A DNA stretch of 26,627 nucleotides. Origin: an uncultured Deinococcales bacterium. GTDB lineage: Bacteria > Deinococcota > Deinococci > Deinococcales > JAAFIG01. Where the stretch lies: the NCBI GenBank assembly GCA_964247135.1, contig CAXTTL010000041.1, positions 1 to 26,627 of the forward strand, in the 5' to 3' direction. Under the pieces are notes generated by a model. It saw nothing but the letters and a program-made list of their open reading frames with translations, did not search any database and was not told where the DNA came from. Position numbers and translations under genes: made by a program. Below are positions 1 to 26,627 of the stretch, one piece after another. Each line of letters opens with the position of its first letter. The stretch's first letter is position 1.

Positions 1-249
1 GTCGAGTTCCTAGACCGACATTTATGCTGCAAACATCGTGCCAGGTCGCGGCTCGAGTTCGCGCTCGAGCATGTCGCCGTGAATGTCCACAATGCCTGGA
101 ATGGCGGTCAAACCCCTGCCGTCAATGCTGGTGCCTGCGCGGCTCGGTTTGCCCTCAACGATCTCGGCAATCACCCCAGCCTCGAGCCGTATCGCGCCGC
201 GTTCGATCACGCCCTCTGGCAGAACCAGTTTTAAATCAGTAAGCCACAT
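1..249 (-). pseudogene. phnM: PhnM (alpha-D-ribose 1-methylphosphonate 5-triphosphate diphosphatase), 5' part; interrupted by two in-frame stops near the window edge (pseudogene or end-of-contig base errors)
   Basis: ATG at 249 after GAGGAG. MWLTDLKLVLPEGVIERGAIRLEAGVIAEI...IPGIVDIHGDMLERELEPRPG is the amidohydrolase/PhnM N-terminus. The frame continues FAA*MSV*ELD to the edge. It follows phnL. Confidence 0.75.
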
Positions 250-961
250 AATCAAGCTCCTCGAGCGGCGTTTCCAAAGCTTCATGCGAACTTTTAATCT
301 CCAGCCTGGCATCGATCAAACCCTGCATGTCCTCTGGATGGTGAAACACGCCGATCATGGCGACGCCGTCTTGCTTTAAAAGCTCGAGTCTGGTTTTCAG
401 GGCGGCTCGCGCCCGAACGTCCAGCGATGCGGTGGGTTCGTCCAAGAGCAGCAGACGCCGTGGTCGAATCAGGGCGCGGGCGAGGTTGACTTTTTGCTGT
501 TCGCCCCCCGAAAAGGTGCTCGGGTACGCCTGCCAGAGTTCGGGTTTTAAACCAAAAGTGTCGAGCATCTCCTCGGCACGCTCGAGCGACCTGGGGCGCG
601 ACATGCCATTTTGAAACAAGGGTTCAGCCACCAATTCCAGGGCGCTGACCCGAGGGCGAGGGTGCAAAAACTGCGCGACGTAACCAATTTCGCGCCGTCT
701 GAGCCAGGCGATGTCCTCGTCGGCTGCCCTGGCAAGATCAATCAAACCGCGCGTCGATTCAAACCAGGCACTGCCAGCGCTGGGGCGATTTGAGCGGTAA
801 ATGCAGCGCAACAGGGTGCTCTTGCCGACGCCGTTCGCACCCGAAACCAGCATCAATTTCCCAGCCTCGAGCGTCGCATCGATGCCATCGAAAGCTTGCA
901 CTTCGCGCCCCAGGTGATGGATCAAAAAGCTTTTGCTGAACGACTCGAGTTTTAAAATCAT
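236..961 (-). CDS. phnL: C-P lyase system ATP-binding protein PhnL
   Basis: Walker A GANGVGKST, FSGGEQQKVNLARA signature, LLLLDEPTASLD, IGVFHH; located in the phn operon directly before phnM. Confidence 0.93.
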   Translation of the reverse strand: MILKLESFSKSFLIHHLGREVQAFDGIDATLEAGKLMLVSGANGVGKSTLLRCIYRSNRPSAGSAWFESTRGLIDLARAADEDIAWLRRREIGYVAQFLHPRPRVSALELVAEPLFQNGMSRPRSLERAEEMLDTFGLKPELWQAYPSTFSGGEQQKVNLARALIRPRRLLLLDEPTASLDVRARAALKTRLELLKQDGVAMIGVFHHPEDMQGLIDARLEIKSSHEALETPLEELDYVAY

Positions 962-1728
962 GTGCTCATCCTTTGTGAGAAAGTCCTTGGGACTTCTAGG
1001 GTGTCCAGGTCTTCAATTCGTTTGACCCCGCGCCCGACCATCCGCGCAATGTCCAGCGGCATCCCGCTTTGCTGAATCGCAAAAATCGCATCATGAATGT
1101 TGTACTCGATTCGGTGATGGCAAACCTCGAGCGATTCGGTATCGAGCACCGCATAGGCGGCTCGGGTGTCACCGTCGATGCTGCGTCCAACCGCGCCAGG
1201 ATTGACCACGACCCTGGAAGAAATTTGACAGGCAAAAGCTTCATGGGTGTGACCGAGCACCAGCACGTCCGCATCGACCCGACTGACCAGCAGCGCCAGC
1301 TTCTCGAGGTCCTTGCTGTCGTACCAAGCGTCCAAATACTCGATGCCCGCGTGAAGCACCGCCACGTGGAGGCTGTCAAACACAAAATCCATGCGCCACG
1401 GCAGACCGTTCAAAAACCACTTGTCTCGAGGCTCGACGTGCGTGTTCGTCCAACCAATCGCGGCACGTTTGAGCGGTTCGGTGCGCTCCGAAGAAAGGTT
1501 GCGCGAGGCGGTCTCGTGCCCCAATGCCACCGCGTGATCGTAATTGCCGCGCACGCTGGGAATGCCGTGGGCGCGAAGCAGCGCAATGGTTTCTTGCGGA
1601 TTTGCGCCGTAAGTCACCAGGTCGCCGGCGCACAAAATAAAATCCACACCGTCGCAGCGAAGATCGTGCAAGACCGCCTGAAGCGCCTGAAGGTTGGCGT
1701 GAACATCCGAGATCAAACCGATTTTCAC
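958..1728 (-). CDS. Calcineurin-like metallophosphoesterase (YfcE/MJ0936-like)
   Basis: Motifs SDVHAN, GDLV, RGNYD, HAG, GHTH, NPG. GTG start overlaps the upstream stop (GTGA), and its stop overlaps the phnL ATG (ATGA). Confidence 0.9.
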   Translation of the reverse strand: MKIGLISDVHANLQALQAVLHDLRCDGVDFILCAGDLVTYGANPQETIALLRAHGIPSVRGNYDHAVALGHETASRNLSSERTEPLKRAAIGWTNTHVEPRDKWFLNGLPWRMDFVFDSLHVAVLHAGIEYLDAWYDSKDLEKLALLVSRVDADVLVLGHTHEAFACQISSRVVVNPGAVGRSIDGDTRAAYAVLDTESLEVCHHRIEYNIHDAIFAIQQSGMPLDIARMVGRGVKRIEDLDTLEVPRTFSQRMST

Positions 1729-2336
1729 AATGCACCGTATTTCTCGAGGAAGTTCTCAATATCGCCGCGAAAATCTGGAAGCCTGGTTTTGATGGTTTCA
1801 TGCGACCAATCCCACCAAGCCAATACCTCGAGGTTTTGGGCAATGTTTTTGGGAAATCGCTGTCGAATCGGTTTTGCGGGCACACCCGCCACTATCGAAT
1901 ACGGCGCAATGTCTTTGGTCACAACTGCACCCGCACCGATCACCGCACCGTTGCCAACCTTCACGCCCGCCATGATCGTGGCATTGTGCCCAATCCAAAC
2001 ATCGTGTCCAATAAAAACCGAATGCGAACGCCGCCACTCAAAAAATTCGGCATCGTCGTGACCCAGTTCAAACATCGCCGCACGGTAGGTAAAATGATGC
2101 GTGGTGGCACGCTCGAGCGGATGATTGCCAGGATTCAGGCGCACAAAACTTGCAATCGAGCAAAACTTCCCGACGCTCGAGAAATCCACCTGCGAATGCT
2201 CACCGATGTAGCTGTAATCGCCAAAACTCGAGTTTTCAATTCGGCAAAACGCCCCGATTTCGGTCCACGCGCCAAGCTCAGACGCCTTGACTCGAGCGCC
2301 AGAATGGATGGTGGGTGTGGTGGAAAGTTGGGTCAT
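1725..2336 (-). CDS. Hexapeptide-repeat (left-handed beta-helix) acetyltransferase, phosphonate-metabolism-associated type
   Basis: GDYSYI, VGKFCSIASFVRLNPGNHP, THHFTYR, IGHDVWIGHNATIMAGVKVGNGAVIGAGAVVTKD, WWDW. This family is known from phn clusters. Confidence 0.92.
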   Translation of the reverse strand: MTQLSTTPTIHSGARVKASELGAWTEIGAFCRIENSSFGDYSYIGEHSQVDFSSVGKFCSIASFVRLNPGNHPLERATTHHFTYRAAMFELGHDDAEFFEWRRSHSVFIGHDVWIGHNATIMAGVKVGNGAVIGAGAVVTKDIAPYSIVAGVPAKPIRQRFPKNIAQNLEVLAWWDWSHETIKTRLPDFRGDIENFLEKYGAL

Positions 2337-2404
2337 GGGTTAATTTCCGTTCGTAGCATTTTGGTTGACAAAGATCACGCCCTGTAAAATATTTTTGGAT
2401 TGTC

Positions 2405-2639
2405 GTAGGGGCGCTGCTTGCTGCGCCCTTGTTGGGGCGCCAACATTCATCAGAGATTTCAAATTCAATTTCTTGAAAAATTTCCTGTTTGGGATAAAAA
2501 CCACCAAGACGCTTAATAGGGCGAACCAATATCGCCCAAGGGTGAACACAAGGTTGTCTTGACCATAAAACGCACCTGTCTTGACCCTAAAGATGCACCT
2601 AACGGGCTGGGGCGCTTCGGGCATGGTCGCCACCCCTAC
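2405..2639. repeat. Cluster of REP-like palindromes with GTAG-headed units in inverted orientation, plus a short tandem repeat
   Basis: GTAG-GGGCGC-tgcttgct-GCGCCC (2405-2428); TGTTGG-ggcg-CCAACA (2430-2445); GGGCGA-accaata-TCGCCC (2519-2537); TGTCTTGACC...GCACC twice (2555-2576, 2577-2599); inverted end CCCCTAC (2633-2639). Confidence 0.6.
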
Positions 2640-2710
2640 AGGACATTTGTTTTGATGATTTTCGAGATTTGGAATTTTCATATTTTGATTTGGACTTTGA
2701 GACTGTCTGC

Positions 2711-3520
2711 TCACAACTTCGCGTGAACGAGTTGCTGCGTGTAGGCGTGTTGCGGGTCCTCGAGCACCTGATCGGTCAATCCAGATTCGACCACCCGCCC
2801 GCCGCGCATGACCATCACACGGTCTGCGAGTGTGCGAATCACGCCCAGGTCGTGCGAAACCAGAATCATGGTCATCTCGAGTTCAAATTGCAAGCGCTTG
2901 AGCGTGTCGAGCACCAGCGCCTGAACGCTGACATCCAAGCCCGTGGTCGGTTCGTCCAGCAGTAACAGTTTGGGTTTCATGGCGATGGCTTTGGCGAGTT
3001 GCACCCGTTGTTGCATCCCGCCCGAGAGGTGAATCGGCGGTTCGTCCATTCTGGCAATCGGGAATTCGCTGGCGGATAGGGATTCCCTGGCGGCGCGGCG
3101 CAGTTCGGCAAACCGTTTTTCACCCGCCAGTATCAGGCGTTCGGCGACATTGCCGCTCGAGGATTTGTGCATTCGTAGACCCAAATGCGGATTTTGGTAG
3201 ACGATGCCGATGTGATGCACGCGGGTTTCACGTTTTGCGAATCTATCCAGTTCAAATAAATTCTGCCCCGACAATTCGGGAATCTCGAGGTTATACGTGC
3301 CGGTGGTTTCGGGTTCTTCAAGATTTAAAAGGCGTAAAACGGTGCTTTTTCCGCTGCCAGATTCGCCGACAATGCCCAGCACCTCGCCAGGGTAAACGTG
3401 CAGGCTGACATCCTCGAGCGCCCGAATGCTGCCGTAATGTTTGCTGAGGTTTGAAACTTGCAGCAAGGGTTGCATCTCGAGCAGTCGCGGTGCCTCCAGG
3501 GTCATCTCGAGCAAGCTCAT
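2711..3520 (-). CDS. phnK: C-P lyase system ABC-ATPase-like protein PhnK
   Basis: GESGSGKST, YQNP, SSSGNVAERL, LSGGMQQRVQLAKA, DEPTTGLDVSVQA, GLTDQVLEDPQHAYTQQLV; ATGA overlap with phnJ. Confidence 0.93.
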   Translation of the reverse strand: MSLLEMTLEAPRLLEMQPLLQVSNLSKHYGSIRALEDVSLHVYPGEVLGIVGESGSGKSTVLRLLNLEEPETTGTYNLEIPELSGQNLFELDRFAKRETRVHHIGIVYQNPHLGLRMHKSSSGNVAERLILAGEKRFAELRRAARESLSASEFPIARMDEPPIHLSGGMQQRVQLAKAIAMKPKLLLLDEPTTGLDVSVQALVLDTLKRLQFELEMTMILVSHDLGVIRTLADRVMVMRGGRVVESGLTDQVLEDPQHAYTQQLVHAKL

Positions 3521-4458
3521 GCGTTGCCCTTCAAAAATCCTGTGATGTAAAAATTTGTGTCGTCATCAAAATAGGTCGCGCCAATTTCGATGCCCTCACC
3601 CGCCATTTGTCGCTCGAGTTTTTGTTTCAAACCTGTGTCTGAAAGTTGATAGCTCGAGCCGCCACCATCCTGCGGAATCTCGGACATGAATTTTCCGGTC
3701 GCACCCGTGCTGGCGTCCACCCAAGCGCGTTGGTCTTCGATCTGAAATGGCACGTCATCAAACTCGAGCGGGTAGACGTTTGTATACGGTGGCACGGCGT
3801 ACAGGCGTTTTTCGCGCCCCGCCGAAAGCAAAGTCAAGTGTGCCGCCTGATGGAGCTTTGGCGTGTCAAACCGTGGAATCGGACTGGGAGCCATCACATA
3901 ACGCCCGTTGACCAGCACGGGGTAATCCGCGCCGTAACTGACCTCGCGGTACTTGACCAAATCTTCGTACAGCCCGAGCCACAACAGCGCGTAATCGCCG
4001 TCGGCGTGCATCTCTCGAGCGCGGGCGTAACTCGGTTCGACCGTTGATAGGATTTCTGGCATGGGGACTTGCAAGACCAAAACCTGGCGCTCATTCAGCA
4101 TCTCTTCGGGAATGCGGTGGCGCGATTGAATTAGTGTTGCCTCGAGGGTATCGATGGTGGTTTTGACGCCAGTCATGCGGGCAATAAAACGGCGAAGATT
4201 GGCGGCATTCACGCTGTCGTCGTCGCCCTGATCGATCACCTTCACGGTGTGGTTTGCGCCGACCAGCGCCAGGCTGACCTGCAAACCGCCCGTCCCCCAA
4301 CCTCGAGCCATCGGCACCTCGCGGCTGGCATAGGGCACCTGATAACCAGGAATGGCGATGGCTTTTAAAATTTTGCGGCGCAATTCGCGTTTGGCAAATT
4401 CGTCCAAAAAAGCATAGGAATAATCTTGGCGTTCAAACGCCAGTTGCTCGAGTTTCAC
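3517..4458 (-). CDS. phnJ: PhnJ-family C-P lyase subunit, atypical (no cysteines); 313 aa from GTG at 4458
   Basis: YSYAFLDEFAKRELRRKILKAIAIPGYQVPYASREVPMARGWGTGGLQ, KVIDQGDDDSVNA, IQSRHRIPE, RYVMAPSPIPRFD, AGREKRLYAVPPYT. GTG overlaps the phnI stop (GTGA) with GAGGTG upstream. The 4704 start in the ORF track runs into phnI and is rejected. Confidence 0.93.
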   Translation of the reverse strand: MKLEQLAFERQDYSYAFLDEFAKRELRRKILKAIAIPGYQVPYASREVPMARGWGTGGLQVSLALVGANHTVKVIDQGDDDSVNAANLRRFIARMTGVKTTIDTLEATLIQSRHRIPEEMLNERQVLVLQVPMPEILSTVEPSYARAREMHADGDYALLWLGLYEDLVKYREVSYGADYPVLVNGRYVMAPSPIPRFDTPKLHQAAHLTLLSAGREKRLYAVPPYTNVYPLEFDDVPFQIEDQRAWVDASTGATGKFMSEIPQDGGGSSYQLSDTGLKQKLERQMAGEGIEIGATYFDDDTNFYITGFLKGNA

Positions 4459-5546
4459 GCGCCCACCTCTTCCAGTTCCGGCTTTAACGAACCGCCCGCC
4501 TGGGCTTTGCGAACGCGGTCGAGGTCGCTCGAGAAGGTCACGTAATGTGGCAGTTTGTAATGGATGCAAAAGCCCGATGCCTCGACGGGTTCGGTGTGCG
4601 ACAGCACGAATTCTTCGGTGTGCGCTGGGTGCGGGTTGGGCAGGCTCATGGCGACATCGAGCATGGAGGCGGCAATCAATTTGGTCTCGTTCCAGCCCAG
4701 GCACGCCGCAAATCCCAGGCTCAGTTCGGGCGGGGTTTTGCCGCTCGAGAATGGGGTCACGACCTCGGCGCTCGAGACGCGAACCCGCCCAGCCGAAAAT
4801 ACCGCGCCCGTGATCGGATGCTCGAGTTGCACCTCGGCGTAAGCAAGGCGCACCTCGTTGACGGTCGGGTGAATCCCGCCGTAACCGCGCATGTTGGAAT
4901 AACCCAGCGCCAAGATGCCGCCCGTGTCCGCCCGCGCAAGCGCCTGCAAGCGTTGCGCCCTGGGCGCGGGATAAATCGGTGGTTCGCGGGTGATGTCGGG
5001 CAGTGCAGCCACCTCTCGAGCCGTGTTGACGGCTGGCTCGAGTTCGCCACCAAGCAAGCCAACCTCGCGCTGCCAGTCGGTCAGTTTTGGGTAACTCGAG
5101 GGTGCGGCATCTTTGACCTCGAGTTTCGGCTCTTGGGTTGTTTCGGTTTCCAATACCTCGAGTTTGAGAACGCGGTGGCTGTAATCGAGCGTTGGTCCCA
5201 GAATTTGCCCGCCAGGAATGTCTTTGAACGCCGCGCTGATGCGCCGCACGACCATCGATTTTTCACTCGAGATTGGCAGGGCATAACACAGCCTCGGTTG
5301 CGTGCTGCGGTAGGCGCGAAGCAATAAGACCGCCTCGTACAAGTCGCCGCCCGTTTGTGCGAGCGCCAGCGCCGCCAGTTCGGGCGCGTACAACGAACCC
5401 TCGCCCATGACCCGATCCACCAAATACGGCATGTGCTTTTCAATGGCGCGAATGTGCTCGCGTTTCAAATCACCATTCAACAGGCGGTACAAGCTTTCAC
5501 TATTTTGAATCGCCTGTTCGCCACCTCGAGCCGCCACATAAGCCAT
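4455..5546 (-). CDS. phnI: C-P lyase complex subunit PhnI
   Basis: MAYVAARGGEQAI, VDRVMGEGSLYAPELAALALAQ, LLRAYRSTQPR, RRISAAFKDIPGGQILGPTLDYSHR, SGFCIHYKLPHYVTF. ATG at 5546 overlaps the phnH stop (TGATG). Confidence 0.95.
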   Translation of the reverse strand: MAYVAARGGEQAIQNSESLYRLLNGDLKREHIRAIEKHMPYLVDRVMGEGSLYAPELAALALAQTGGDLYEAVLLLRAYRSTQPRLCYALPISSEKSMVVRRISAAFKDIPGGQILGPTLDYSHRVLKLEVLETETTQEPKLEVKDAAPSSYPKLTDWQREVGLLGGELEPAVNTAREVAALPDITREPPIYPAPRAQRLQALARADTGGILALGYSNMRGYGGIHPTVNEVRLAYAEVQLEHPITGAVFSAGRVRVSSAEVVTPFSSGKTPPELSLGFAACLGWNETKLIAASMLDVAMSLPNPHPAHTEEFVLSHTEPVEASGFCIHYKLPHYVTFSSDLDRVRKAQAGGSLKPELEEVGA

Positions 5547-6121
5547 CAGTTGCCGCCCAAAATTTCGAGTTTGGTGCTGCGCGGAATGCCCACAAGCTTG
5601 CATTCGGCATGATCTCGAGCCACCAGCAACAAGTCCCAACCGAGCGGAAAGCTGACGATTCGGTTGCGGAGTTTAAAGACCTCGGGCGGCAAACCAGCCA
5701 CTTCGAGATTGGTCTTGTCTTGAATGCCCGCACCCGATAACTCGAGCTTTAGCCCAGATGAGAACCCGCAGGCGATCACCAAGGTCGCGCTCTGGTCTGG
5801 ATTGAGCAGCGTTCCAATCGGCGCGGATTCCAGCAAAAACAATTGCTCGAGCGAAAATGATGGGTAAAACTGATAGGCGGCTCGGTCGGCTGCCTCGCAA
5901 TGGGCGCCAGTCTTTTTGAATTTGGAACTGAGCGCGGTATCGGGCGTGAAAAAACTCGTCTCGAGGTCGAGCACGGTTTCGGCTATTGTCTCAAGTCCTG
6001 TTAAGTCGTGCTCGAGTGACGCAAAATGCTGAATTTCGCCAGGTCTTGAGAGCGCCCACATGAGCGCCGTAAAGGTCTGCTGCGAACGGGATTCTTGCTC
6101 GGTCAGGGTTGGCACAGCCAT
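5546..6121 (-). CDS. phnH: C-P lyase complex subunit PhnH
   Basis: SQQTFTALMWALSRPG, LDLET, GTLLNPDQSATLVI, LSGAGI, FPLGWDLLL, GIPRST. ATG at 6121 overlaps the phnG stop (TGATG). Confidence 0.92.
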   Translation of the reverse strand: MAVPTLTEQESRSQQTFTALMWALSRPGEIQHFASLEHDLTGLETIAETVLDLETSFFTPDTALSSKFKKTGAHCEAADRAAYQFYPSFSLEQLFLLESAPIGTLLNPDQSATLVIACGFSSGLKLELSGAGIQDKTNLEVAGLPPEVFKLRNRIVSFPLGWDLLLVARDHAECKLVGIPRSTKLEILGGN

Positions 6122-6546
6122 CAAAATGTCTCCATCTGTACACGGGTGCTTTCGACCTGAGCCAGCAAGTTGTGGTCTTGAAGCTCGAGGATTGATCGCT
6201 GGGCTGTCACAAACTCGAGAATCTGTGCTTGCGCCAAACCTTCGGTCCATGCCGCATCCAAAATGGCAATCGCCAGCGCCAACTCGAGGTCGCGCCCGAG
6301 CACCGCGTTGTAACCTTCAGACTTCCCAAGTTTCACTCGAGCGACACTTAAGAGCACTTCGCCCAAATGAAAGGTGGTTCCCTGGGCGCTGTCCACGGCG
6401 GGCAGCATCGCCAAACCCGTGCGATTCTCGAGGACGGTTAAACCGTATGGCTCGAGTTCTGGCAGCAAATCATCGGTGAAGATTTTGATGGCTTCGGGAT
6501 TTGAATTGTTCAAAATTGAAAGCATTTCTGCCTGAACCAGATTCAT
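6121..6546 (-). CDS. phnG: C-P lyase complex subunit PhnG
   Basis: TGLAMLP, FHLGEVLLSVARVKL, GYNAVLGRD, AIAILDA, VESTRVQMETF; lies between phnE and phnH. Confidence 0.9.
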   Translation of the reverse strand: MNLVQAEMLSILNNSNPEAIKIFTDDLLPELEPYGLTVLENRTGLAMLPAVDSAQGTTFHLGEVLLSVARVKLGKSEGYNAVLGRDLELALAIAILDAAWTEGLAQAQILEFVTAQRSILELQDHNLLAQVESTRVQMETF

Positions 6547-7443: not shown

Positions 7444-7556
7444 ATGCACCGTATGACCCAAAAACTTACCCTCGAGCGATTCACAACGTTTTCAGATTGC
7501 TGAACTCGAGTTCTGAGATGAATCTCGGGGGGTGTCAGCCTCGAGACTCTGGAGGC

Positions 7557-9394: not shown

Positions 9395-9463
9395 GGCAAA
9401 GTATGCCAGCAAGGTGTTTGCCCAGACGTTCATGTTCTTCAATCTCGAGCCTCTCAAAACATC

Positions 9464-10810: not shown

Positions 10811-10903
10811 ACATCCTCCTCTGTCTCGGGTGGTACAGCTCAAGCCGTACCGCCCGATGCGTTCACACCCCAGAATCTCGAGGTCGAAAAGCCATTGTTT
10901 GGT

Positions 10904-13859: not shown

Positions 13860-14069
13860 GGCTTAACCTTACACTTTACAAAAATCCAAACATTGCAAGC
13901 TGGGTCGCAATCACCCGAGATGCGATTTTGGTGTGGTCAATCTCGAGAGAACAGGCTTGAGCATTACGGTCTATCTTGAATAAACCTGCACTCGGTTTAA
14001 ACACGTCAATTCGCCATACGATTTGTCATGGACACGATTTTGGCAGGCGTTATCTTGCATGGTATTTTG

Positions 14070-14804: not shown

Positions 14805-14810
14805 AACCGT

Positions 14811-14841: not shown

Positions 14842-14871
14842 GCCGCAAAAACCCGTTAAACTCGAGAGACG

Positions 14872-15756: not shown

Positions 15757-15780
15757 CATAAAAGCGGTTGACTCGAGGGC

Positions 15781-19667: not shown

Positions 19668-19729
19668 TGAGTCTCCCTCCAAAAAAACCCGAGATGCCAA
19701 ATCAATCTTGGCATCTCGAGCAAGCTGAT

Positions 19730-22351
19730 TTAACGGGTGGCGCTGTCGCTGTAAGGGTCGGTCAAGCCAACCGACTTGGAGAGGTTATTGACCACCGTCT
19801 GCACCGCAGCACTTGGTTTGGACATCTGAACGTTCTTCCAGTGGCGGTAGGCGCGTTGGGCTTCGGTGTTGAGTGGGTTGGCTCGAGCGCTCATTTTGAC
19901 GGCTGGCATTGGGCTGTTCTCGCCCTTGACGGCGTGCCAAATGATGTCATTGAAGACCCGTTCGTCCACCGCATCGGCTTTTGCCAAATTCAAGCCGTTG
20001 GAGAGTTTGGCTTTGTACGCCAGCAGCGTGTTCATGGTATCAAGCGGTTGTTTTGGCACGACCGACTTGTAGGGCGCAAGGTTTGGCGCGTCTTGAAAGG
20101 TGGCGATCATCGGCGTGGCGGCGGCATCAAACTGGGTCATCGGCGGCAAGCCCAAAATCAGTTCAATCGTGCGCAACATTGAGGTGGTCGAGTACATCGT
20201 GTGGTCGCGGACGTTGCGTTTGCTGTAGGCGCTGATGGCGAGCGCGGGCATACGGTGTGCGTCCACGTGATCCGCCCCGTTTTGCGCGTCATCCTCGAGC
20301 ACGAAAATGGCGGTGTCTTTCCAGTAAACGCTGTTTGAAACCGCTTCGACCAGTTTCCCGAGCGCCAGGTCGTTGTCGGCGACGTAGGCGGCTGGAATCG
20401 GCGAACCGACCCGGGTGCCATTGGTGTGATCCCTGGGCAGGCGCACCACCGAAAGTTGCGGCAGTTTGCCGTCTTTCACGTAACCGTCAAACTCTTGCTT
20501 CCAGGCGTCAAAACGAACCTGATCGCTGATTGCCATGCTGTAACCTGGGAAGGTTGGCGAGAGCCGACCCTCGAGCGCGGTGGCAAAAAGGGTTGGTTTG
20601 ACGTTGGGTGCGGCGCTGGCGAAATCGTTGAACTCACCGTAGGAGCGGTAATCCAAACCGGCGCGTTTGGCATAATCGAACAGGTAGCCGCCGGCTGGGG
20701 CGCTGGCGGTCGAACCCATCTCGAAGTCGTAATCGCGCCCCCTGGGCGAGTAATTTGCCACCCAGTTGCGTTGGGTGTATTGCGTGGCAATCGCGCCCAT
20801 CGTCCAGTTGTGACCGTCGGCGCTGACCTCGGCATCGGCGTAAAAGTTATCCAGCAAACCAAACTCGAGCGCCAGGGCGTGTTGGTTGGGGGTGACGTCC
20901 TGCCCGAACAACTCGAGGCTGGGGTCTCCGTTGCCCTCGGTCAGGCTGCCGTACAGTTGGTCGTAGGTGCGGTTTTCTTTGATCACATAAATCACGTGCT
21001 TGATCGGACTTGGGTCGCCGGCGCGAAGCGGAATGGCGTGCGGCGTGCTTGATGCCGCTCGAGCCAGCACGCCTTTGGTGTTCTCCAGACCGTTGTTTTT
21101 CGCCACGGTGGCGCTGTACGCCTCGAGGGTTTTGGCGTCTGGCGTCGGAATCACCGAGATTGTGCCTCGAGCCATCGCCGCAATGTATTGCTCGCTGGGG
21201 TTGCGTTTGTCGGGCACGGGTCCTTGCGGGTTCGGTCCGGCACCCAGACCTTTCATGTTGGCGGCAAACAAGAACGTGCCGTCTTTGCTGATTGCCACGG
21301 CGCTCGGAAACCACGCCGTCGGGATGCGCCCATTGACTTTGCCGCTGGCAATGTCCACCACCGCAATCGCGTTCTCGCCGCCGAGGGTCACGTAAAGGGT
21401 TTTGTTGTCTGGCGCAACGGTCAATGCGGTTGGCATCGAACCGGCTGGCGCTCCGGCGTAAGGCTCGAGGTTGAGGGTTACGCTGACTTTGTTGCTGGCG
21501 GTATCAACAACGCTGACGGTGTTCGCGTTGGTGTTCGCCACAAATAAACTCTTGCCGTCAGGTGACAGCGCCATTGCACTCGGATGCGCCCCAACTTCGA
21601 CTCGAGCGACCTCTTTCAGGCTGGTGGTGTCTACAACTGCAACCGCTTTGGCATTCTCGAGCGCCACATACAAGCTTTTGCCATCGCTGGAAAGTTGCAG
21701 CATGTACGGCATCTGCCCGATGTCGGTGGCACTGGCGACGCCGCCAAATTTGATGGTTTTCAGGTTCGTTTGCGTGCGGCTGCTGGCGAGGTCAATCGCG
21801 GCGACGGTGTTGCCCAGGTTGTTCGCCACGAACAAGGTTTTGCCGTCTTGTGAAGCCGCCAGACCAGATGGAAAGATTGGGGTGCTCGAGTCTCCCAGCA
21901 CGATGCTCGCGTTTTCGGTCAGTCTGCCCGCATCGAAGCTGTAGCTGCGGATTTTGTTGTTGCCGCCCGCCGAGGCGTACAAATTCTTGCCGTCCGCGCT
22001 CCAAGTTACCCCGACGTACAGGGCTTCTGGGGCTGGGTACGGGATGGTCTGGGCGACGCGGCGGGTGTAGGTGTCAACCAGCGTCAATCCCTGCACGCCC
22101 TGACCGCAGTTGACAATTGCCAGATATTGACCGCTCGGGCTGAGCGCCACACCCATCGGACGGTCGCCAACCTCGAGCTGCAAGCCGGCGGGGCTGAGTA
22201 CCCAATTGTTCGGCGTGACGCCCGTGCCATCGGCTTGCGGTCCAACTTTGCCGAAGAAGGCAAAACCTGCCGCCGTGACCGCTCCGATGGTCAAAACACC
22301 CATCACCAAAATGCTCGAGATTACCTGTTTGCGCTTTAATACCTGCATCAT
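19730..22351 (-). CDS. Secreted YncE/YVTN beta-propeller + phosphoesterase (alkaline-phosphatase superfamily) protein, copy 1
   Basis: N-terminal hydrophobic signal; repeated LSxDGKxLFVAN/VSVVDT blades; KHVIYVIKENRTYDQ, DNFY, SADGH, LPRDHT, ADNDLALG, EDDAQNGADHVDAHR. Confidence 0.9.
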   Translation of the reverse strand: MMQVLKRKQVISSILVMGVLTIGAVTAAGFAFFGKVGPQADGTGVTPNNWVLSPAGLQLEVGDRPMGVALSPSGQYLAIVNCGQGVQGLTLVDTYTRRVAQTIPYPAPEALYVGVTWSADGKNLYASAGGNNKIRSYSFDAGRLTENASIVLGDSSTPIFPSGLAASQDGKTLFVANNLGNTVAAIDLASSRTQTNLKTIKFGGVASATDIGQMPYMLQLSSDGKSLYVALENAKAVAVVDTTSLKEVARVEVGAHPSAMALSPDGKSLFVANTNANTVSVVDTASNKVSVTLNLEPYAGAPAGSMPTALTVAPDNKTLYVTLGGENAIAVVDIASGKVNGRIPTAWFPSAVAISKDGTFLFAANMKGLGAGPNPQGPVPDKRNPSEQYIAAMARGTISVIPTPDAKTLEAYSATVAKNNGLENTKGVLARAASSTPHAIPLRAGDPSPIKHVIYVIKENRTYDQLYGSLTEGNGDPSLELFGQDVTPNQHALALEFGLLDNFYADAEVSADGHNWTMGAIATQYTQRNWVANYSPRGRDYDFEMGSTASAPAGGYLFDYAKRAGLDYRSYGEFNDFASAAPNVKPTLFATALEGRLSPTFPGYSMAISDQVRFDAWKQEFDGYVKDGKLPQLSVVRLPRDHTNGTRVGSPIPAAYVADNDLALGKLVEAVSNSVYWKDTAIFVLEDDAQNGADHVDAHRMPALAISAYSKRNVRDHTMYSTTSMLRTIELILGLPPMTQFDAAATPMIATFQDAPNLAPYKSVVPKQPLDTMNTLLAYKAKLSNGLNLAKADAVDERVFNDIIWHAVKGENSPMPAVKMSARANPLNTEAQRAYRHWKNVQMSKPSAAVQTVVNNLSKSVGLTDPYSDSATR

Positions 22352-22382
22352 GATTTCCCCTTGCTACGTTTTGTAAAAATCG

Positions 22383-25007
22383 TTATTTGATTTGATCGCC
22401 AGTCAATGCCGCACCCAAACCCGTTTGTTGCTCGAGCTTTTTGGTCAGATTCTGGCTTGCCGCTGTGCTGCGCGAAACGAACGGTTTGGTGATGAAACGC
22501 TCAAACCTCGAGTGCGCCCAAGACGCGAACTTGTTGACGCGGCGGCTCGAGTTGACTTGAGGCATGAGTGTCTTTGCGCCTTTGGCGGAGTGCCACAAAA
22601 TCTCGTTCAGGATCGCGGCGTTCACGCGGTCGGGTTTGGAAAAATTGTAGTGCGAGGATTCTTTGGCTTTGTAGGAGAGCGCCGTGTTCATTTCCTCGAG
22701 TTTTTGTTTTGGAACCAGCGCTTTGTAAGGCGCGAAGTTTGGCGCGTCTTGGAAGGCGGCAATCATTGGCGTGGCTGCCGCGTCAAATTGGGTCATCGGC
22801 GGCAAGCCCAGAATCAACTCGAGGGTGCGCAGCATCGAGACCTGCGAGTATTGCGTGTGGTCGCGCACGCCGCGTTTGCTGTAAGGGCTGATGGCAAAGG
22901 CGATGGTGCGGTGCGCGTCCACGTGGTCGGGTCCACTCTGCGCGTCATCCTCGAGACTCAAGATCACGGTATCTTTCCAGTATGGGCTGTTAGAGACGGC
23001 TTCGACGATCTTGCCAAATGCGAGGTCGTTGTCGGCGACCATCGCTTTGGGCGTGGGCAAACCCTTGTACGATCCCGCCGTGTGATCTCGAGGCAGTGTG
23101 ATGATCGAAAGTTGCGGCAGCTTGCCATCTTTGACAAAACCGTCAAACTCGAGTTTCCAATTCTTGAAACGGTCTTGGTCGCTGTAGGTCATGTCAAAGC
23201 CCAAATACGTTGGTGAAAAATGATCTTTGAGGTTGGGTTGAGCGGGCGAAGGAATCAGATTGGGCAGCTTCGAGGCATAATCCCAGAATTCGCCGTAAGA
23301 ACGGTAGGAAATGCCGGCGCGTTTGGCAAAGTCGTACAAGAAACCGTTGCTCGGGTTGGCGGCATTGCTCGCGCCCTCCCAGTCGTAACCTCGGTTGCGG
23401 TCTGAATAATCCGCCGCCCAGAAACGCTGGGTGTAATCGCCCGCCACCGCCGCCATCGCCCAGTCGTGACCGTCGGCAGAAACCTCGGCATCGCAGTAAA
23501 AATTATCGAACAGACCAAACTCGAGCGCCAGCGCGTGGTGGTTTGGCGTGACATCCTGCCCGTACAGCGTCAGGCTCGGCTCGCCATTGCCCTCTTTCAG
23601 GTCGCCCAACACCTGGTCGTAGGTACGGTTTTCTTTGATCACGTAAATCACGTGCTTGAAGACGCTCGGGTCGCCAAGTTTACGCGGAATCGGTTGGGCT
23701 TTGGTGGCGCTCGAGCCTTTGACCAGCGCTTGGCGGGTTTCGTCAAAACCGTTGTTCTTGACGACTTGAGCCGTGTATGCCTCGAGGGTTTTGGCGTCTG
23801 GAGTCTCGAGGATGCTGAGCGTGCCGCGTGCCAGCCCCGCGATGTATTGCTCTTCGGGGCGGTCCACGCCGTCAATCGGTCCGAGCGGGTTTGGTCCAGC
23901 GCCCAGACCCTTCAGGTTGGCGACGTACAAGAATTTGCCATTGCTCGAGGTGGCGACGGCGCTCGGATACCAGGCGGTCGGGATCAAGCCACGGACTTTG
24001 TTGCTGCCCAAGTCCACCACCGCCAGGTCGTTGTTGCCGCCGTTGGCAACATAAAGCGTCTTGCCGTCTTTGGAGACGGTCAGCGCATTTGGAATCGAAC
24101 CGAACGGCGCACCGTCGTAAGGGCGCAAGTTGATCTCAGCCCGCACCGCGTTGCTGGCGGTATCGACAAGGCTGACCGAATCTGAGTTGGCGTTCGCCAC
24201 GTACAAGGTCTTGCCGTCATTTGAAAGGGTCATGCCCGAGGGTTGGTCGCCCACCACAATCTGTTTTTGCAACTCGAGTTTCTCGGTGCCGATCACGCTG
24301 AGGGCTTTTTGGTTGGTGTGCGAAACGTAAAGCGTCTTGTCGTCCTTTGAGAGTTGCAGCGCGTAGGGCAAAGTCACTTTGCCCGTGTCGCCACTGGCAT
24401 CACCAAACTTAAAATACCGGGCGCTCAGACCGTTGCGGCGCGTGGTGTCGATGGCGACAATCGAATTGCCGTAATTGAGGGCGGCGTAAAGCGTTTTCCC
24501 ATCTTGAGAGAGCGCCAAACCCGCCGGAAAAATCGGACTCGAGAGGTCGCCCAAAATAAACGGTGCGCCCTCGGTCAGCATTTTGCCGTCGAAACCGTAA
24601 CTGCGAATTTTGTTGTTGCCGCCCGCCGAGGCGTAGAGCGCCTTGCCGTCTTTGCTCCAAGCCAGCCCGTAAAACAAAGCCTCCGGTTCGGGGTACGGGA
24701 TTTTTTGCACGACCTTGTTGGTAAACGTGTCGAGCAACACCAGGCTTTGCACGCCCTGACCACCGTTGGTCACGGCAAGGTAGCGTCCGTCGGGCGACGG
24801 CTCGAGCGCCATCGGTCGGTCTCCGACCTCGACTTGCAAACCGGCTGGGGTCAGCGTCCACTTGTTCGGGGTCATGCCCGTACCGTCGGCTTGCGGTCCA
24901 ACCGTGCCAAAAAAGTACGAGTTTGTCCCAAAAGCCACCGCACCCACCAGTGCTGCACCAAGCAAGATCAAGGAAAGTCGTTTTTTCTGCCCGAGCATGT
25001 TCATCAT
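22383..25007 (-). CDS. Secreted YncE/YVTN beta-propeller + phosphoesterase protein, copy 2
   Basis: Same architecture and motifs as copy 1 (KENRTYDQ, SADGH, LPRDHT, EDDAQSGPDHVDAHR); GGAGG RBS; 874 aa versus 873 aa. Confidence 0.9.
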   Translation of the reverse strand: MMNMLGQKKRLSLILLGAALVGAVAFGTNSYFFGTVGPQADGTGMTPNKWTLTPAGLQVEVGDRPMALEPSPDGRYLAVTNGGQGVQSLVLLDTFTNKVVQKIPYPEPEALFYGLAWSKDGKALYASAGGNNKIRSYGFDGKMLTEGAPFILGDLSSPIFPAGLALSQDGKTLYAALNYGNSIVAIDTTRRNGLSARYFKFGDASGDTGKVTLPYALQLSKDDKTLYVSHTNQKALSVIGTEKLELQKQIVVGDQPSGMTLSNDGKTLYVANANSDSVSLVDTASNAVRAEINLRPYDGAPFGSIPNALTVSKDGKTLYVANGGNNDLAVVDLGSNKVRGLIPTAWYPSAVATSSNGKFLYVANLKGLGAGPNPLGPIDGVDRPEEQYIAGLARGTLSILETPDAKTLEAYTAQVVKNNGFDETRQALVKGSSATKAQPIPRKLGDPSVFKHVIYVIKENRTYDQVLGDLKEGNGEPSLTLYGQDVTPNHHALALEFGLFDNFYCDAEVSADGHDWAMAAVAGDYTQRFWAADYSDRNRGYDWEGASNAANPSNGFLYDFAKRAGISYRSYGEFWDYASKLPNLIPSPAQPNLKDHFSPTYLGFDMTYSDQDRFKNWKLEFDGFVKDGKLPQLSIITLPRDHTAGSYKGLPTPKAMVADNDLAFGKIVEAVSNSPYWKDTVILSLEDDAQSGPDHVDAHRTIAFAISPYSKRGVRDHTQYSQVSMLRTLELILGLPPMTQFDAAATPMIAAFQDAPNFAPYKALVPKQKLEEMNTALSYKAKESSHYNFSKPDRVNAAILNEILWHSAKGAKTLMPQVNSSRRVNKFASWAHSRFERFITKPFVSRSTAASQNLTKKLEQQTGLGAALTGDQIK

Positions 25008-25051
25008 GACGCCTCCAAATCACAACACTTCAGATGCTTCAATCCCAAAAT

Positions 25052-25504: not shown

Positions 25505-25526
25505 AAAACTCCTTGTCTTTAACCAG

Positions 25527-25563
25527 AAAAGTCGTGTCCCGCAGGAGGTGATTGCGGGACACG
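25527..25563 (-). terminator. Stem-loop/terminator after the third phosphoesterase gene
   Basis: CGTGTCCCGCA-N9-TGCGGGACACG 11-bp stem; on the minus strand it is followed by acTTTT. Confidence 0.7.
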
Positions 25564-25576
25564 GTTCCGGCGGCAA

Positions 25577-26627
25577 TTACCTGTTCTCGAGGTTGATGCC
25601 CGAATGGTTGGAATCCAGATTTTTAATGACCTTTTGCAGTGCGGCTTCGCCAGTCGCAATCGGCACGCGCCTCGAGCCAGCCCCGAGCATGATGTCGGCA
25701 CTCTCGTTGAACGTGACGTCTTGTCCAACGCTTTTCAGGTAGGCGTGAACGTCGCTGGGATGGAACACTTTTGGATCGCCCGGGTAGGGCGTGTCATAGC
25801 CTTTGGTGGCGTACCAAATCGCACGGTTTAATAAGGCGGGGTCGGCGCGGTCGGGTCCACTCGAGAAATCCATTTTCTGAGACGCCCGCGCCCATGCCCC
25901 CTCAAGCGTCAGCAGCGAAACAGGTTTGGGATTCAATTCGGTCAGCGCCGTGGTCGGTTCGAGCGCCGTGAAAGGCTCGAGGTTGGCGCTGCTCGAGAAC
26001 AGCGTATTCAGGTGCGTGGGGTCCACCGCCATGTCCATCTGGTTCATTGGGGGCAAGCCCAGAATGCGTTCCATCGCGGCAATAAAATCGATTTGGGTCA
26101 TGTACTGGCTGAACGTGCCAGCCTTGCTGTAGGCGGAAATAATGTTCGCGGGTCCTCGGTGTCCGTTGACATGATCCACACCGTTTTGCACGTCATCCTC
26201 GACCACAAAAATGACCGTGTCCTTCCAATACGGACTCTTGCTGATCGCCTCGACCACGCGCCCGAGCGCCAGATCGTTGTCGGCAACCATCGCCTTGGGG
26301 GTTGGGTAGGTCGGCGCGGTACCGTTGGTGTGATCGCTGGTCAATGCCATGATGTTGAAATCGGGCAGGTTGCCGTCTTTGACATATTGGTTAAATTCTT
26401 TCAACCAAATTTCCGTGCGGTACTGATCCGAAATCACCTGATGGTACGGCGGGAAATCTTTATCAATGATCTTCTCGAGGCTCGGCACGTCCGAATGCGC
26501 CTCGAGTTTTGCAATGTGCATCGGACCCGTTTTTTTGCCGCCCATAATCAAGGCGTCGTCATAAAAATTATTCCAAACGCCCGCCTCGGTCACGCCGCCA
26601 CCGACGAAGCTCGAGCCGAGCCAGGGC
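25577..26627 (-). CDS. Third, more divergent phosphoesterase paralogue; 3' part only, open to the window edge
   Basis: ISDQYR, LTSDHTNG, MVADNDLALG, SPYWKDTVIFVVEDDVQNGVDHVNGHR, ILGLPPMNQMD; no stop in this frame up to the edge. Confidence 0.88.
   Translation of the reverse strand, partial: PWLGSSFVGGGVTEAGVWNNFYDDALIMGGKKTGPMHIAKLEAHSDVPSLEKIIDKDFPPYHQVISDQYRTEIWLKEFNQYVKDGNLPDFNIMALTSDHTNGTAPTYPTPKAMVADNDLALGRVVEAISKSPYWKDTVIFVVEDDVQNGVDHVNGHRGPANIISAYSKAGTFSQYMTQIDFIAAMERILGLPPMNQMDMAVDPTHLNTLFSSSANLEPFTALEPTTALTELNPKPVSLLTLEGAWARASQKMDFSSGPDRADPALLNRAIWYATKGYDTPYPGDPKVFHPSDVHAYLKSVGQDVTFNESADIMLGAGSRRVPIATGEAALQKVIKNLDSNHSGINLENR

What the first reader, a model, noticed from the sequence alone, without database searches (positions are those of the whole stretch)
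52..26615. CTCGAG as a HIP1-like highly iterated palindrome (about 20-fold over-represented)
Seen: about 160 CTCGAG copies by hand count versus about 8 expected. They fall in all three reading frames (Leu-Glu; Ser-Ser/Ser-Arg; x-Arg-x such as ARA, TRG) and in intergenic DNA (for example 7471, 7505, 7540, 9444, 10877, 13922, 14861, 15772, 19715), so amino-acid or codon usage alone does not explain them. Established: cyanobacterial HIP1 (GCGATCGC) behaves this way and is linked to DNA methyltransferases; CTCGAG is the XhoI/PaeR7I site, and restriction sites are usually depleted, not enriched. Inference: a methylation-coupled repair or mutational ratchet, or a selected chromosome-wide signal (nucleoid protein site, recombination or DNA-uptake signal), in a probable non-cyanobacterial lineage.
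Basis: partly seen in the sequence, partly recalled or inferred. Interest (0 to 1): 0.75.

Follow-up and report, generated by a model that had tools for sequence, protein, structure and literature searches.

The report
Hyper-abundant CTCGAG palindrome in Deinococcales
The six-letter palindrome CTCGAG occurs about every 150 bases throughout this uncultured Deinococcus relative's genome, densely enough to change protein sequences, and it resembles the still unexplained HIP1 repeat of cyanobacteria but has no matching methylase.

Summary
The window holds 163 CTCGAG against 5.6 expected. The whole 5.09-Mb genome holds 33,925 copies, or 6.7 per kb and 25 times expectation. They lie in all frames and are denser still in spacers.

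The word overrides codon choice and inflates Leu-Glu 2.35-fold. All 18 of 18 sampled genomes of the same uncultured Deinococcales family share it. A weaker form occurs in Meiothermus-titled loci and other genera, but not in the Thermus-like or Deinococcus-like genera.

In four-genome alignments, sites are lost at a third of the neutral rate and gained 4.5 times faster. A directional force therefore acts on the hexamer itself.

- I found no conserved cognate methylase.
- No Vsr was found.
- The XhoI-linked methylase of this order occurs in CTCGAG-poor genera only.

My best guess is a transformation- or recombination-linked drive, or selection, acting through an unidentified CTCGAG-binding factor.

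This scan has reported the same phenomenon at least nine times, once on this genome. My nine literature searches found no published report.

The parts
52..26615 (.). 163 copies of CTCGAG spread over the whole window (mean spacing about 163 bases)
   Evidence: 163 matches against 5.56 expected from 100 dinucleotide shuffles; 101, 18 and 32 in frames 0, 1 and 2, and 12 outside called genes.
7471..7545 (.). Three copies (7471, 7505, 7540) in the 186-base spacer between a permease gene (6543-7370) and a phosphonate-binding-protein gene (7557-8447)
   Evidence: In the four-genome comparison, 7471 and 7540 are kept in three of the four genomes.
9444..9449 (.). Spacer copy between the genes at 8438-9340 and 9506-10843
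10877..10882 (.). Spacer copy between the genes at 9506-10843 and 10904-11764
13942..13947 (.). Spacer copy.
14861..14866 (.). Spacer copy between divergent glycosyltransferase genes
15772..15777 (.). Spacer copy in front of the UDP-glucose dehydrogenase gene
19715..19720 (.). Spacer copy between the genes at 18756-19700 and 19730-22351
3517..4704 (-). phnJ with 8 copies. At the invariant Ala-Arg-Gly the site is made by synonymous choice; at variable positions the family has Leu-Glu where other phyla have other residues.
   Evidence: PhnJ, E 3.7e-121. (ARG in 66 of 68 orthologues from other phyla; at nucleotide 559 of the gene, LE against RE or AE).
4455..5639 (-). phnI with 12 copies. Several force Ser-Ser or Leu-Glu where orthologues differ.
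   Evidence: PhnI, E 4.7e-117. (VSS in 6 of 6 family relatives against VTE in 38 of 66 orthologues from other phyla; LE against VR, VK or IS).

Best explanation
CTCGAG is a lineage-specific highly iterated palindrome. It is kept at about 25 times its chance frequency by a weak, uniform, directional bias in which alleles become fixed.

Any allele carrying the complete hexamer is favoured, whatever its position, frame or strand. Alleles that break a site are disfavoured. Protein-coding and codon-usage constraints oppose this bias. This first layer is shown.

If mutation and fixation are in balance, the population-scaled advantage is roughly ln(13 to 25), or about 3 per site. This figure is inferred.

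The most likely source of the bias is a protein that recognises the bare hexamer during DNA exchange. CTCGAG-bearing DNA would then be taken up, or recombined, preferentially in these naturally transformable bacteria, and the word would spread by molecular drive, as DNA uptake sequences do. On present evidence this would not involve cognate methylation. This second layer is inferred. I put the first layer at about 0.9 and the whole statement at about 0.35.
For: Shown:
- Same excess everywhere. The observed/expected ratio is 23-27 in every GC class from 32 to 60%. All 297 contigs of 5 kb or more carry the word. Only 41 of 1,971 genes of 900 bases or more have 20% or less of the expected sites.
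- Denser where constraint is lower. Density is 7.8-11.5 per kb in 2,062 strict spacers against 6.6 per kb in genes.
- It overrides coding. 77% of Leu-Glu pairs are written CTCGAG against 4.9% expected. Leu-Glu has an observed/expected ratio of 2.35 against 1.01 for Glu-Leu. Amino acids are replaced in PhnI and PhnJ.
- The hexamer alone is the unit. Flanks are near random, and 79% of sites have no palindromic extension.
- Dynamics. At about 85% nucleotide identity, 77-85% of sites are kept (100 of 130, 81 of 96, 96 of 113, 42 of 51) against 39-44% of control hexamers.
- Polarised on 46,196 four-way aligned positions, 187 losses were seen against 566 expected (ratio 0.33), and 82 gains against 18.4 expected (ratio 4.46). 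Nine unrelated control words gave loss ratios of 0.68-1.04 and gain ratios of 0.67-1.67.
- All six positions matter, and both transitions and transversions create sites.

In favour of the drive reading (inferred):
- Uptake sequences are the one known class of short words that accumulate in genes and spacers alike and reshape peptides (recalled from the literature on Haemophilus and Neisseria, not read here).
- HIP1 is now reported to raise transformation, and a 2026 paper proposes it as an uptake signal (PMC13756078, passages read).
- Very close pairs of sites are under-represented: gaps of 30 bases or less make up 10% against 18% expected. This fits a signal with diminishing returns.
- Flanks of newly gained sites are slightly more diverged in the gaining genome (0.061-0.068 against 0.046, about 2 standard errors).
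Against: - No uptake or binding protein has been identified, and nothing here measures uptake.
- A six-base word is shorter than any known uptake sequence, and it is palindromic, whereas the known ones are not.
- The Thermus-like genus shows no enrichment. In its sampled 40 kb, 19% of Leu-Glu pairs are CTCGAG against 33% expected. Thermus is recalled to be highly transformable, so competence alone is not sufficient.
- The flank test is weak.
- On terminal branches, losses (187) outnumber gains (82), while control words are balanced. Either the word is slowly eroding in this genus, or about 15% of each branch is unfiltered polymorphism. I could not separate these two readings.
- Divergence data cannot tell drive from ordinary selection for a chromosomal function.
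Confidence: 0.35

Rival explanations
1. Direct selection for a chromosome-level function. CTCGAG would be the binding site of an abundant nucleoid, condensation, segregation or repair-scaffold protein, and cells benefit from a dense, fairly even carpet of sites.
For: - The same conservation and gain/loss asymmetry applies.
- Spacing is near geometric, with a deficit of very close pairs. The longest site-free stretch in 5.09 Mb is only 2.6 kb.
- Xu et al. 2018 argue for selection and a chromosome-architecture role for HIP1 (PMC5861425, passages read).
Against: - Any new position is favoured. Gains run at 4.5 times expectation, and 13 to 42 lineage-private sites occur in the alignments. No individual site therefore seems to be needed.
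- The cost is high, with thousands of amino-acid changes.
- Sister genera do without the word.
- No candidate protein was found.
Confidence: 0.27
2. Methylation-coupled mismatch repair, following either Elhai's model for HIPs or a very-short-patch-like repair. A CTCGAG methylase would mark sites, and a linked repair activity would convert near-sites into sites.
For: - The analogy with HIP1 and the alternate HIPs, where a cognate methylase accompanies each abundant palindrome (PMC4390886, abstract and passages read).
- D12-class methylases occur in 17 of 18 family genomes.
Against: - The D12 genes fall into at least two kinds. One is paired with a SacI-family nuclease. The other sits in a swappable restriction slot and was not found in this genome.
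- TaqI_C-type methylases occur in 6 of 18 family genomes.
- Of the two tested methylases of this genome, one has close orthologues (79% identity or more) in 4 of 18 family genomes and the other in 2 of 18, plus one at 50%.
- G011, a single contig, has no PF01555 methylase.
- Vsr was found in 0 of 18 family genomes.
- The XhoI nuclease (7 of 301 genomes) and its partner methylase (42 of 301) are absent from all 18 family genomes. The methylase is common in the CTCGAG-poor Thermus-like genus (24 of 32).
- The gain spectrum includes C>T, G>A and C<->G changes, and there is no excess CpG decay.
Confidence: 0.12
3. A self-marker read by a nuclease or repair machine, like Chi. DNA rich in CTCGAG would be spared or repaired, and DNA poor in it would be degraded.
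For: - The genome is under heavy restriction pressure. Most 6-base palindromes are at less than 0.5 of expectation, and about 30 are at less than 0.15.
- Likely recent arrivals lack sites: a methylase gene on C189, and defence genes in G011.
Against: - The known signals of this kind are asymmetric and strand-oriented (recalled); this word is a palindrome.
- Low-GC islands still carry the full 24-fold excess.
- No such nuclease was identified.
Confidence: 0.1
4. A by-product of codon or amino-acid usage, a dispersed repeat element, or an assembly artefact.
For: 62% of the window's sites (101 of 163) are in the Leu-Glu frame.
Against: - The spacer excess is 40- to 53-fold.
- Synonymous shuffles leave 6- to 15-fold excesses.
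- Flanks are random.
- The word is present in 18 of 18 independent assemblies of the family.
- Sites are conserved at orthologous positions.
Confidence: 0.01

Closest known systems
HIP1 (GCGATCGC) and the alternate HIPs of cyanobacteria (GGCGCC, GCsGC, rCCGGy): Elhai 2015, PMC4390886; Xu, Lawrence and Durand 2018, PMC5861425
   Same: - A short GC-rich palindrome tens of times over chance across the whole genome.
- It lies in genes (all frames) and in spacers, and is not part of a mobile repeat.
- It is conserved between genomes beyond control words.
- It tends to be rarer in genes with strong codon bias.
- Its function is unknown.
   Different: - It is six letters long, not eight.
- It is 2.5 to 20 times denser: 6,660 per Mb against 300-2,700 per Mb for HIP1 (Table 2 of PMC4390886, seen).
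- It is in a different phylum.
- No cognate methylase was found, whereas that is the hallmark of HIPs in Elhai's survey.
- It visibly inflates a dipeptide proteome-wide.
- Kilobase-scale periodicity was not testable on this fragmented assembly.
DNA uptake sequences (DUS of Neisseria, USS of Pasteurellaceae)
   Same: - A short word accumulated genome-wide in naturally transformable bacteria.
- It lies in genes and spacers, and is able to bias peptide composition.
   Different: - Those words are 9-12 bases long, asymmetric, and occur about once per kb.
- A receptor and an uptake bias have been shown for them. Here neither is known, the word is a hexamer palindrome, and the density is about seven per kb.
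Very-short-patch repair enrichment of CCWGG in E. coli (Dcm plus Vsr)
   Same: A repair bias tied to a recognition site raises the frequency of that site.
   Different: - That effect is modest and works only through T:G to C:G correction next to an m5C methylase.
- Here Vsr was not found (0 of 18 family genomes plus this genome).
- Gains include C>T and transversions.
XhoI/PaeR7I-type restriction-modification of CTCGAG
   Same: Same recognition sequence. A genuine XhoI-family nuclease with a 340-residue PF01555 methylase exists in this order.
   Different: - That system is in other families: 5 of 23 genomes in f4, 1 of 96 in f2, and 1 of 68 in f5.
- It is in none of the 18 family genomes.
- Its methylase is common in the genus that is not enriched.

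Membership tests
Highly iterated palindromes (HIP1 and alternate HIPs) | Short GC-rich palindrome at 15-fold or more over expectation across the genome | tested here: met
   33,925 copies, zero-order observed/expected ratio 24.7, and the commonest hexamer. 29-fold over dinucleotide shuffles in the window.
Highly iterated palindromes (HIP1 and alternate HIPs) | Present in coding DNA in all frames and in non-coding DNA; not part of a longer repeat | tested here: met
   Frames 0, 1 and 2 hold 17,478, 4,089 and 6,318 sites. Strict spacers hold 7.8-11.5 per kb. Flanks are near random.
Highly iterated palindromes (HIP1 and alternate HIPs) | Sites conserved between related genomes more than control words | tested here: met
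   77-85% kept against 39-44% for control hexamers. Loss ratio 0.33 against 0.68-1.04 for nine control words.
Highly iterated palindromes (HIP1 and alternate HIPs) | A methylase specific for the palindrome or its core is present wherever the palindrome is abundant | tested here: not met
   - No conserved candidate in the Pfam families PF01555, PF00145, PF02384, PF07669, PF12950 or PF02086.
- The XhoI-linked methylase was found in 0 of 18 family genomes.
- A methylase of an unknown family cannot be excluded.
Highly iterated palindromes (HIP1 and alternate HIPs) | Kilobase-scale periodic spacing | not tested
   The assembly has 386 contigs. Only short-range spacing was examined: mean 148 bases, coefficient of variation 0.96, and a deficit of gaps under 30 bases.
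Highly iterated palindromes (HIP1 and alternate HIPs) | Cyanobacterial lineage | tested here: not met
   The closest public relatives are titled Deinococcales bacterium MAGs, with 88-90% PhnJ identity.
DNA uptake sequences | Genome-wide accumulation in genes and spacers, with an effect on peptide composition | tested here: met
DNA uptake sequences | Asymmetric word of 9-12 bases | tested here: not met
   The word is a palindromic hexamer without informative flanks.
DNA uptake sequences | Preferential uptake shown, and a receptor known | not testable with these tools
   This needs transformation assays.
Very-short-patch repair-driven site enrichment | Vsr endonuclease present | tested here: not met
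   PF03852 was found in 0 of 18 family genomes and not in this genome. One of 31 genomes overall had it, and the control genomes did match.
Very-short-patch repair-driven site enrichment | Sites created only by T>C (A>G) correction; m5C decay signature at the methylated C | tested here: not met
   One-step gains from CCCGAG/CTCGGG number 15 against 5.3 expected. Gains from CTGGAG/CTCCAG number 6 against 0.36 expected. Losses at the CpG number 27 against 89 expected, like the other transitions.
Target of a resident XhoI/PaeR7I-type restriction system | Cognate nuclease and methylase present; site avoided or neutral | tested here: not met
   PF04555 was found in 0 of 18 family genomes and not in this genome. 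Its partner methylase was found in 0 of 18. The site is enriched, not avoided.
REP/MITE-type dispersed repeat | Conserved sequence beyond the core | tested here: not met
   Base frequencies 10 positions either side stay between 0.18 and 0.39.

The most novel reading that the evidence does not exclude
CTCGAG is a methylation-independent 'own DNA' word read during natural transformation or recombination. It spreads by molecular drive strongly enough to rewrite thousands of codons and amino acids. The same system runs at lower strength in several other Deinococcales lineages, including Meiothermus-type bacteria that can be grown. It would then be a second, independent and experimentally reachable instance of the process behind HIP1.
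Probability: 0.25. Interest if true: 0.85.

Novelty: new variant of a known kind. Interest (0 to 1): 0.77.

Why it matters
Why cyanobacteria carry thousands of HIP1 copies has been an open question for about thirty years, and every clue so far comes from one phylum.

This is an independent case in another phylum. It is denser and simpler, being a bare hexamer. On present evidence it has no partner methylase, so it separates the phenomenon from the methylation hypothesis that dominates the HIP1 literature.

It also shows how far a weak sequence-level force can go. It inflates one dipeptide 2.35-fold across a proteome and replaces residues in conserved enzymes.

A weaker form of the same signature appears in loci titled Meiothermus and in other genera. 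The question could therefore be taken to the bench, with uptake assays, methylomes and pull-downs. It could also be addressed by a phylogenetic screen for the responsible gene across several hundred genomes with graded densities.

Tried and rejected
- 4th-order Markov z-scores. These are uninformative because the sub-words inherit the excess.
- Scan of viral contigs for three close sites. The dense hits are 58-71% GC contigs, most of which also carry GAGCTC, and none has the family's signature. Nothing can be concluded about phages of this clade.
- Metagenome scan with PhnJ, to get closer relatives for short-branch counts. The best hit had 68% identity (one had 73% over its best segment), so there were no close relatives.
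- Sequencing runs. One run held 6% of the sampled words, with only thin short contigs. It was useless for polymorphism.
- Two 20-kb queries for more multi-genome alignments had poor cover. Two others worked.
- rRNA genes. Universal primer motifs were not found in this assembly, so sites in rRNA could not be counted.
- No ribosomal-protein operon was recognisable from gene order. The link between low site density and high expression therefore rests only on a codon-bias axis and on the identity of site-poor genes.
- The idea that foreign low-GC islands lack the word is rejected. The longest site-free stretches are low in GC, but the observed/expected ratio there is still 14-27.
- Conditioning on hexamers shared by all but one genome biases the controls towards slow sites. 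It was replaced by the majority-of-others polarisation.
- Supplementary tables of the HIP1 papers were not opened.

Full report
**The observation**

The window holds 163 exact CTCGAG, from 52 to 26615. Dinucleotide-preserving shuffles give a mean of 5.56 and a largest value of 12, and 0 of 100 reach 163.

With my gene calls, 101, 18 and 32 sites fall in frames 0, 1 and 2, and 12 fall outside genes. Position 13922 should read 13942.

The window itself is ordinary. It holds a phosphonate C-P lyase operon, ABC transporters, glycosyltransferases and two paralogous propeller-phosphoesterase genes.

**The whole genome**

The assembly is 5,091,702 bases in 386 contigs, with 52.7% GC. It holds 33,925 sites, or 6.66 per kb.

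- CTCGAG is by far the commonest hexamer, at 24.7 times zero-order expectation.
- All 297 contigs of 5 kb or more carry at least 2.56 per kb.
- Flanking positions are near random. The strongest preference is G before and C after the word, at 39% each. 79% of sites have no palindromic extension, so this is a bare hexamer and not a repeat element.
- 62% of all TCGA lie inside CTCGAG.
- Spacing is close to geometric, with a mean of 148 and a coefficient of variation of 0.96. Gaps of 30 bases or less are under-represented (10% against 18%). The longest site-free stretch in the genome is 2.6 kb.

**Coding against non-coding DNA**

Called genes carry 6.60 sites per kb. In 2,062 strict spacers of 20-300 bases (216.6 kb) the density is higher:

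| Spacer type | Sites per kb |
|---|---|
| Divergent | 7.8 |
| Tandem | 9.8 |
| Convergent | 11.5 |

These values are 40 to 53 times local expectation.

Shuffling synonymous codons within each gene leaves excesses of 5.7-, 14.5- and 11.2-fold in frames 0, 1 and 2.

- Of 22,537 Leu-Glu pairs, 77% are written CTCGAG against 4.9% expected from context-free codon use.
- Leu-Glu is 2.35 times commoner than the product of its residues. Glu-Leu is at 1.01 and Ser-Ser at 1.62.
- In PhnJ and PhnI the word is made by synonymous choice at invariant residues. Ala-Arg-Gly is kept in 66 of 68 orthologues from other phyla.
- At variable positions the word is made by amino-acid replacement. Val-Ser-Ser occurs in 6 of 6 family relatives where 38 of 66 orthologues from other phyla have Val-Thr-Glu.

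The excess is the same in every composition class, with an observed/expected ratio of 23-27 from 32 to 60% GC. Only 41 of 1,971 genes of 900 bases or more have 20% or less of the expected number.

Of the 20 most site-poor genes examined (out of the 41):
- eight are ABC solute-binding proteins and two are ammonium transporters;
- others are low-GC defence or surface genes.

The excess falls from about 27-fold to 17-fold along the main codon-bias axis. This resembles the negative link between HIP1 and expression reported in PMC5861425 (passages read). I could not confirm that the axis reflects expression.

**Who has the word**

The closest public relatives of the window's PhnJ are MAGs titled Deinococcales bacterium. 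All 18 of 18 sampled genomes of the same family (five genera) carry 4.3-6.8 sites per kb.

I take g9 to be Thermus-like and g7 to be Deinococcus-like from genome size and composition, not from names.

| Group | CTCGAG per kb | Comment |
|---|---|---|
| Genus g9 (32 genomes, Thermus-like) | about 0.6-1.6 | Much the same as the reversed control word GAGCTC |
| Genus g7 (86 genomes, Deinococcus-like) | 0.01-0.27 | Often depleted |
| Genera g13, g22, g24 (in the same family as g9) | 1.4-3.5 | Control word several-fold lower |
| Several genera of family f2 | 2-2.8 | |
| G285 (outlier in the family that holds g7) | 3.6 | |

In sampled DNA the full signature recurs in weaker form:

| Sample | Leu-Glu written CTCGAG | Expected | Leu-Glu obs/exp | Non-called DNA (per kb) |
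|---|---|---|---|---|
| G285 (120 kb) | 80% | 14% | 1.73 | 2.7 against 0.34 expected |
| Loci titled Meiothermus or Thermaceae, plus one contig each of G128 and G152 (63 kb) | 68% | 18% | 1.52 | 3.4 against 0.33 expected |
| Thermus-like G022 (40 kb) | 19% | 33% | not enriched | |

The trait is therefore graded and patchy across the order, with its extreme in this family.

**Dynamics**

Same-genus genomes are about 85-87% identical in DNA. Of the window's sites, the numbers kept at the orthologous place were:

| Relative | Sites kept | Control hexamers kept |
|---|---|---|
| G005 | 100 of 130 | 44% |
| G003 | 81 of 96 | 39% |
| G001 | 96 of 113 | 44% |
| G004 | 42 of 51 | 43% |

I then aligned four genomes over three regions, giving 46,196 positions covered by all four. 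Of the 359 site loci, 172 are shared by all four genomes, 102 by three, 43 by two, and 42 are private to one.

I polarised each genome against the majority of the other three, and compared the counts with average-site substitution rates:

| Word | Losses seen / expected | Gains seen / expected |
|---|---|---|
| CTCGAG | 187 / 566 (ratio 0.33) | 82 / 18.4 (ratio 4.46) |
| Nine unrelated control words | ratios 0.68-1.04 | ratios 0.67-1.67 |
| GAGCTC | | 0 / 20 |

The product of the two CTCGAG ratios, about 13, matches the standing excess of the word over its neighbours.

Further detail comes:
- Gains come from one, two, three and four changes: 37, 28, 15 and 2, against 13.6, 4.1, 0.7 and 0.05 expected.
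- They include C>T/G>A changes (15 against 5.3 expected) and C<->G transversions (6 against 0.36 expected).
- Losses at the three transition positions are alike (38, 27 and 30 against about 90 each), so the CpG shows no special decay.

Losses (187) exceed gains (82), while control words are balanced. Either the word is slowly eroding in this genus, or roughly 15% of each terminal branch is unfiltered polymorphism. I could not decide between these.

**The methylation hypothesis**

In this genome the DNA methylases I found belong to sporadic defence systems:
- a PvuII pair;
- an NgoPII pair;
- a PF01555 methylase with an unknown neighbour;
- an m5C methylase on an island that is absent from G005;
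- two MmeI-like enzymes;
- a type I system;
- a 1,499-residue methylase-helicase;
- a site-free methylase that is probably a recent arrival.

Close orthologues of the two tested candidates occur in only 4 of 18 and 2 of 18 family genomes; the second also has one 50%-identical relative. TaqI_C-type methylases occur in 6 of 18.

The single-contig relative G011 (4.6 sites per kb) has no PF01555 methylase. It has three type I systems, one type ISP enzyme, one m5C methylase in a defence island, and two D12-class genes.

D12-class methylases are in 17 of 18 family genomes, but they are of at least two kinds.
- One kind, present in this genome on contig C320, is followed by a gene matching the SacI nuclease family (E 8e-7, above the curated cut-off).
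- The other kind sits, with an unknown 376-397-residue neighbour, in the slot between a nucleoside hydrolase gene and sua5. In this genome that slot holds the NgoPII pair.

Vsr was found in 0 of 18 family genomes.

A true XhoI-family nuclease exists in the order, in 7 of 301 genomes and in none of the 18 family genomes. It is paired with a 340-residue PF01555 methylase. Homologues of that methylase, at 56-79% identity, occur in 42 of 301 genomes:
- 24 of 32 genomes of the non-enriched Thermus-like genus;
- 13 of 23 genomes of family f4;
- 0 of 18 genomes of this family;
- 1 of 26 genomes of g13, with a stop codon;
- 0 of 4 and 0 of 3 genomes of g22 and g24.

That these homologues methylate CTCGAG is inferred from the pairing and was not shown. 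MAGs are incomplete, and an unknown methylase family cannot be excluded. Even so, the defining feature of cyanobacterial HIPs was looked for in several ways and was not met.

**What it most likely is**

What is shown is a directional, position-independent force on the hexamer itself. It has the same strength everywhere and is opposed by coding constraint.

I infer that this force is a bias in transmission or fixation of about 3 in population-scaled units. I think the likeliest source is a protein that reads CTCGAG during DNA uptake or recombination. The word would then spread by drive, as uptake sequences do, in line with the recent proposal for HIP1 (PMC13756078, passages read).

Ordinary selection for a chromosomal function explains the same data almost as well. 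Methylation-coupled repair is now the weaker rival.

**Novelty**

Nine full-text searches found no report of CTCGAG over-representation in Deinococcota or elsewhere. The HIP1 papers I opened do not mention CTCGAG or Deinococcus. About 1.7 million articles are outside the searched library, and I did not open supplements.

Within this scan the phenomenon has been reported at least nine times, once on another window of this same genome. One of those reports was later marked 'part of it fell', without saying which part.

- the polarised gain and loss rates, with controls;
- the constant excess across composition classes;
- the anti-correlation with the XhoI-type methylase;
- the exclusion of a Vsr-type route;
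- the SacI-type explanation for the missing GAGCTC;
- the weaker form of the signature in Meiothermus-titled and other lineages.

Noticed in passing
Whole genome; G000:C320:1061-2985 (locus L535): The reversed word GAGCTC does not occur once in 5.09 Mb, where about 1,370 copies are expected. It numbers 3 to 25 in most family genomes. A D12-class methylase (277 aa) is followed by a 364-aa gene matching the SacI nuclease family (E 8e-7). This is a likely SacI-type restriction system, and it explains the avoidance.
   Followed up: partly
Whole genome; G000:C36 (L124:4236-6060), G000:C14 (L128:6041-7937): Most 6-base palindromes are strongly avoided, and about 30 are below 0.15 of expectation. Among them are GGCC-containing words, CAGCTG, CGTACG, CCGCGG, GCATGC and GGATCC. 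A PvuII pair and an NgoPII pair are present, and they fit the CAGCTG and GGCC avoidance.
   Followed up: partly
G000:C14:35074-39157 against G005:C6 (L534:5374-9441) and G004:C78 (L541): The slot between the inosine-uridine nucleoside hydrolase gene and sua5 holds an NgoPII nuclease plus m5C methylase in this genome. In two same-genus genomes it holds a D12 methylase plus an unknown 376-397-aa gene. It looks like a swap site for restriction systems.
   Followed up: partly
window 2537-2654: A dispersed repeat of about 75-115 bases lies between two genes. It has well over a hundred copies, at 80-100% identity, scattered through the five same-genus genomes. It is probably the REP-type element noted earlier for this genome.
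   Followed up: no
window 19730-22351, 22383-25007 and 25577-26593: Two tandem paralogues of 873 and 874 aa combine a lactonase-type beta-propeller with a phosphoesterase (phospholipase C/acid phosphatase family) domain. A third, shorter phosphoesterase gene follows. They lie next to the phosphonate operon and may form a phosphorus-scavenging cluster.
   Followed up: no
20 site-poor genes of G000 (loci L512-L531): Of the 20 genes poorest in CTCGAG, eight encode ABC solute-binding proteins and two encode ammonium transporters, which are typically very highly expressed. The excess falls from 27-fold to 17-fold along the codon-bias axis.
   Followed up: partly
Order survey: Homologues of the XhoI-linked methylase occur in 24 of 32 genomes of the Thermus-like genus, yet the XhoI-family nuclease occurs in 0 of 32. 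The methylase appears to be an orphan there, and CTCGAG is not enriched in that genus.
   Followed up: no
Order survey, genus g7: Many genomes of the Deinococcus-like genus are strongly depleted in CTCGAG, for example 26-60 copies in about 2.8 Mb. This is the opposite of the family studied here.
   Followed up: no
G000:C178:2930-4105 against G005:C34 (L450): The m5C methylase gene and about 800 bases beside it are missing from the otherwise collinear stretch of the same-genus genome G005. They form an inserted island.
   Followed up: partly
G011:C1:4981850-4983684 region (L365:1850-6684): An m5C methylase is followed by HD-CE and ORC/CDC6-like genes and a 313-aa unknown gene. The four genes hold only 0, 1, 3 and 0 CTCGAG sites. 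They look like a recently acquired defence island.
   Followed up: no
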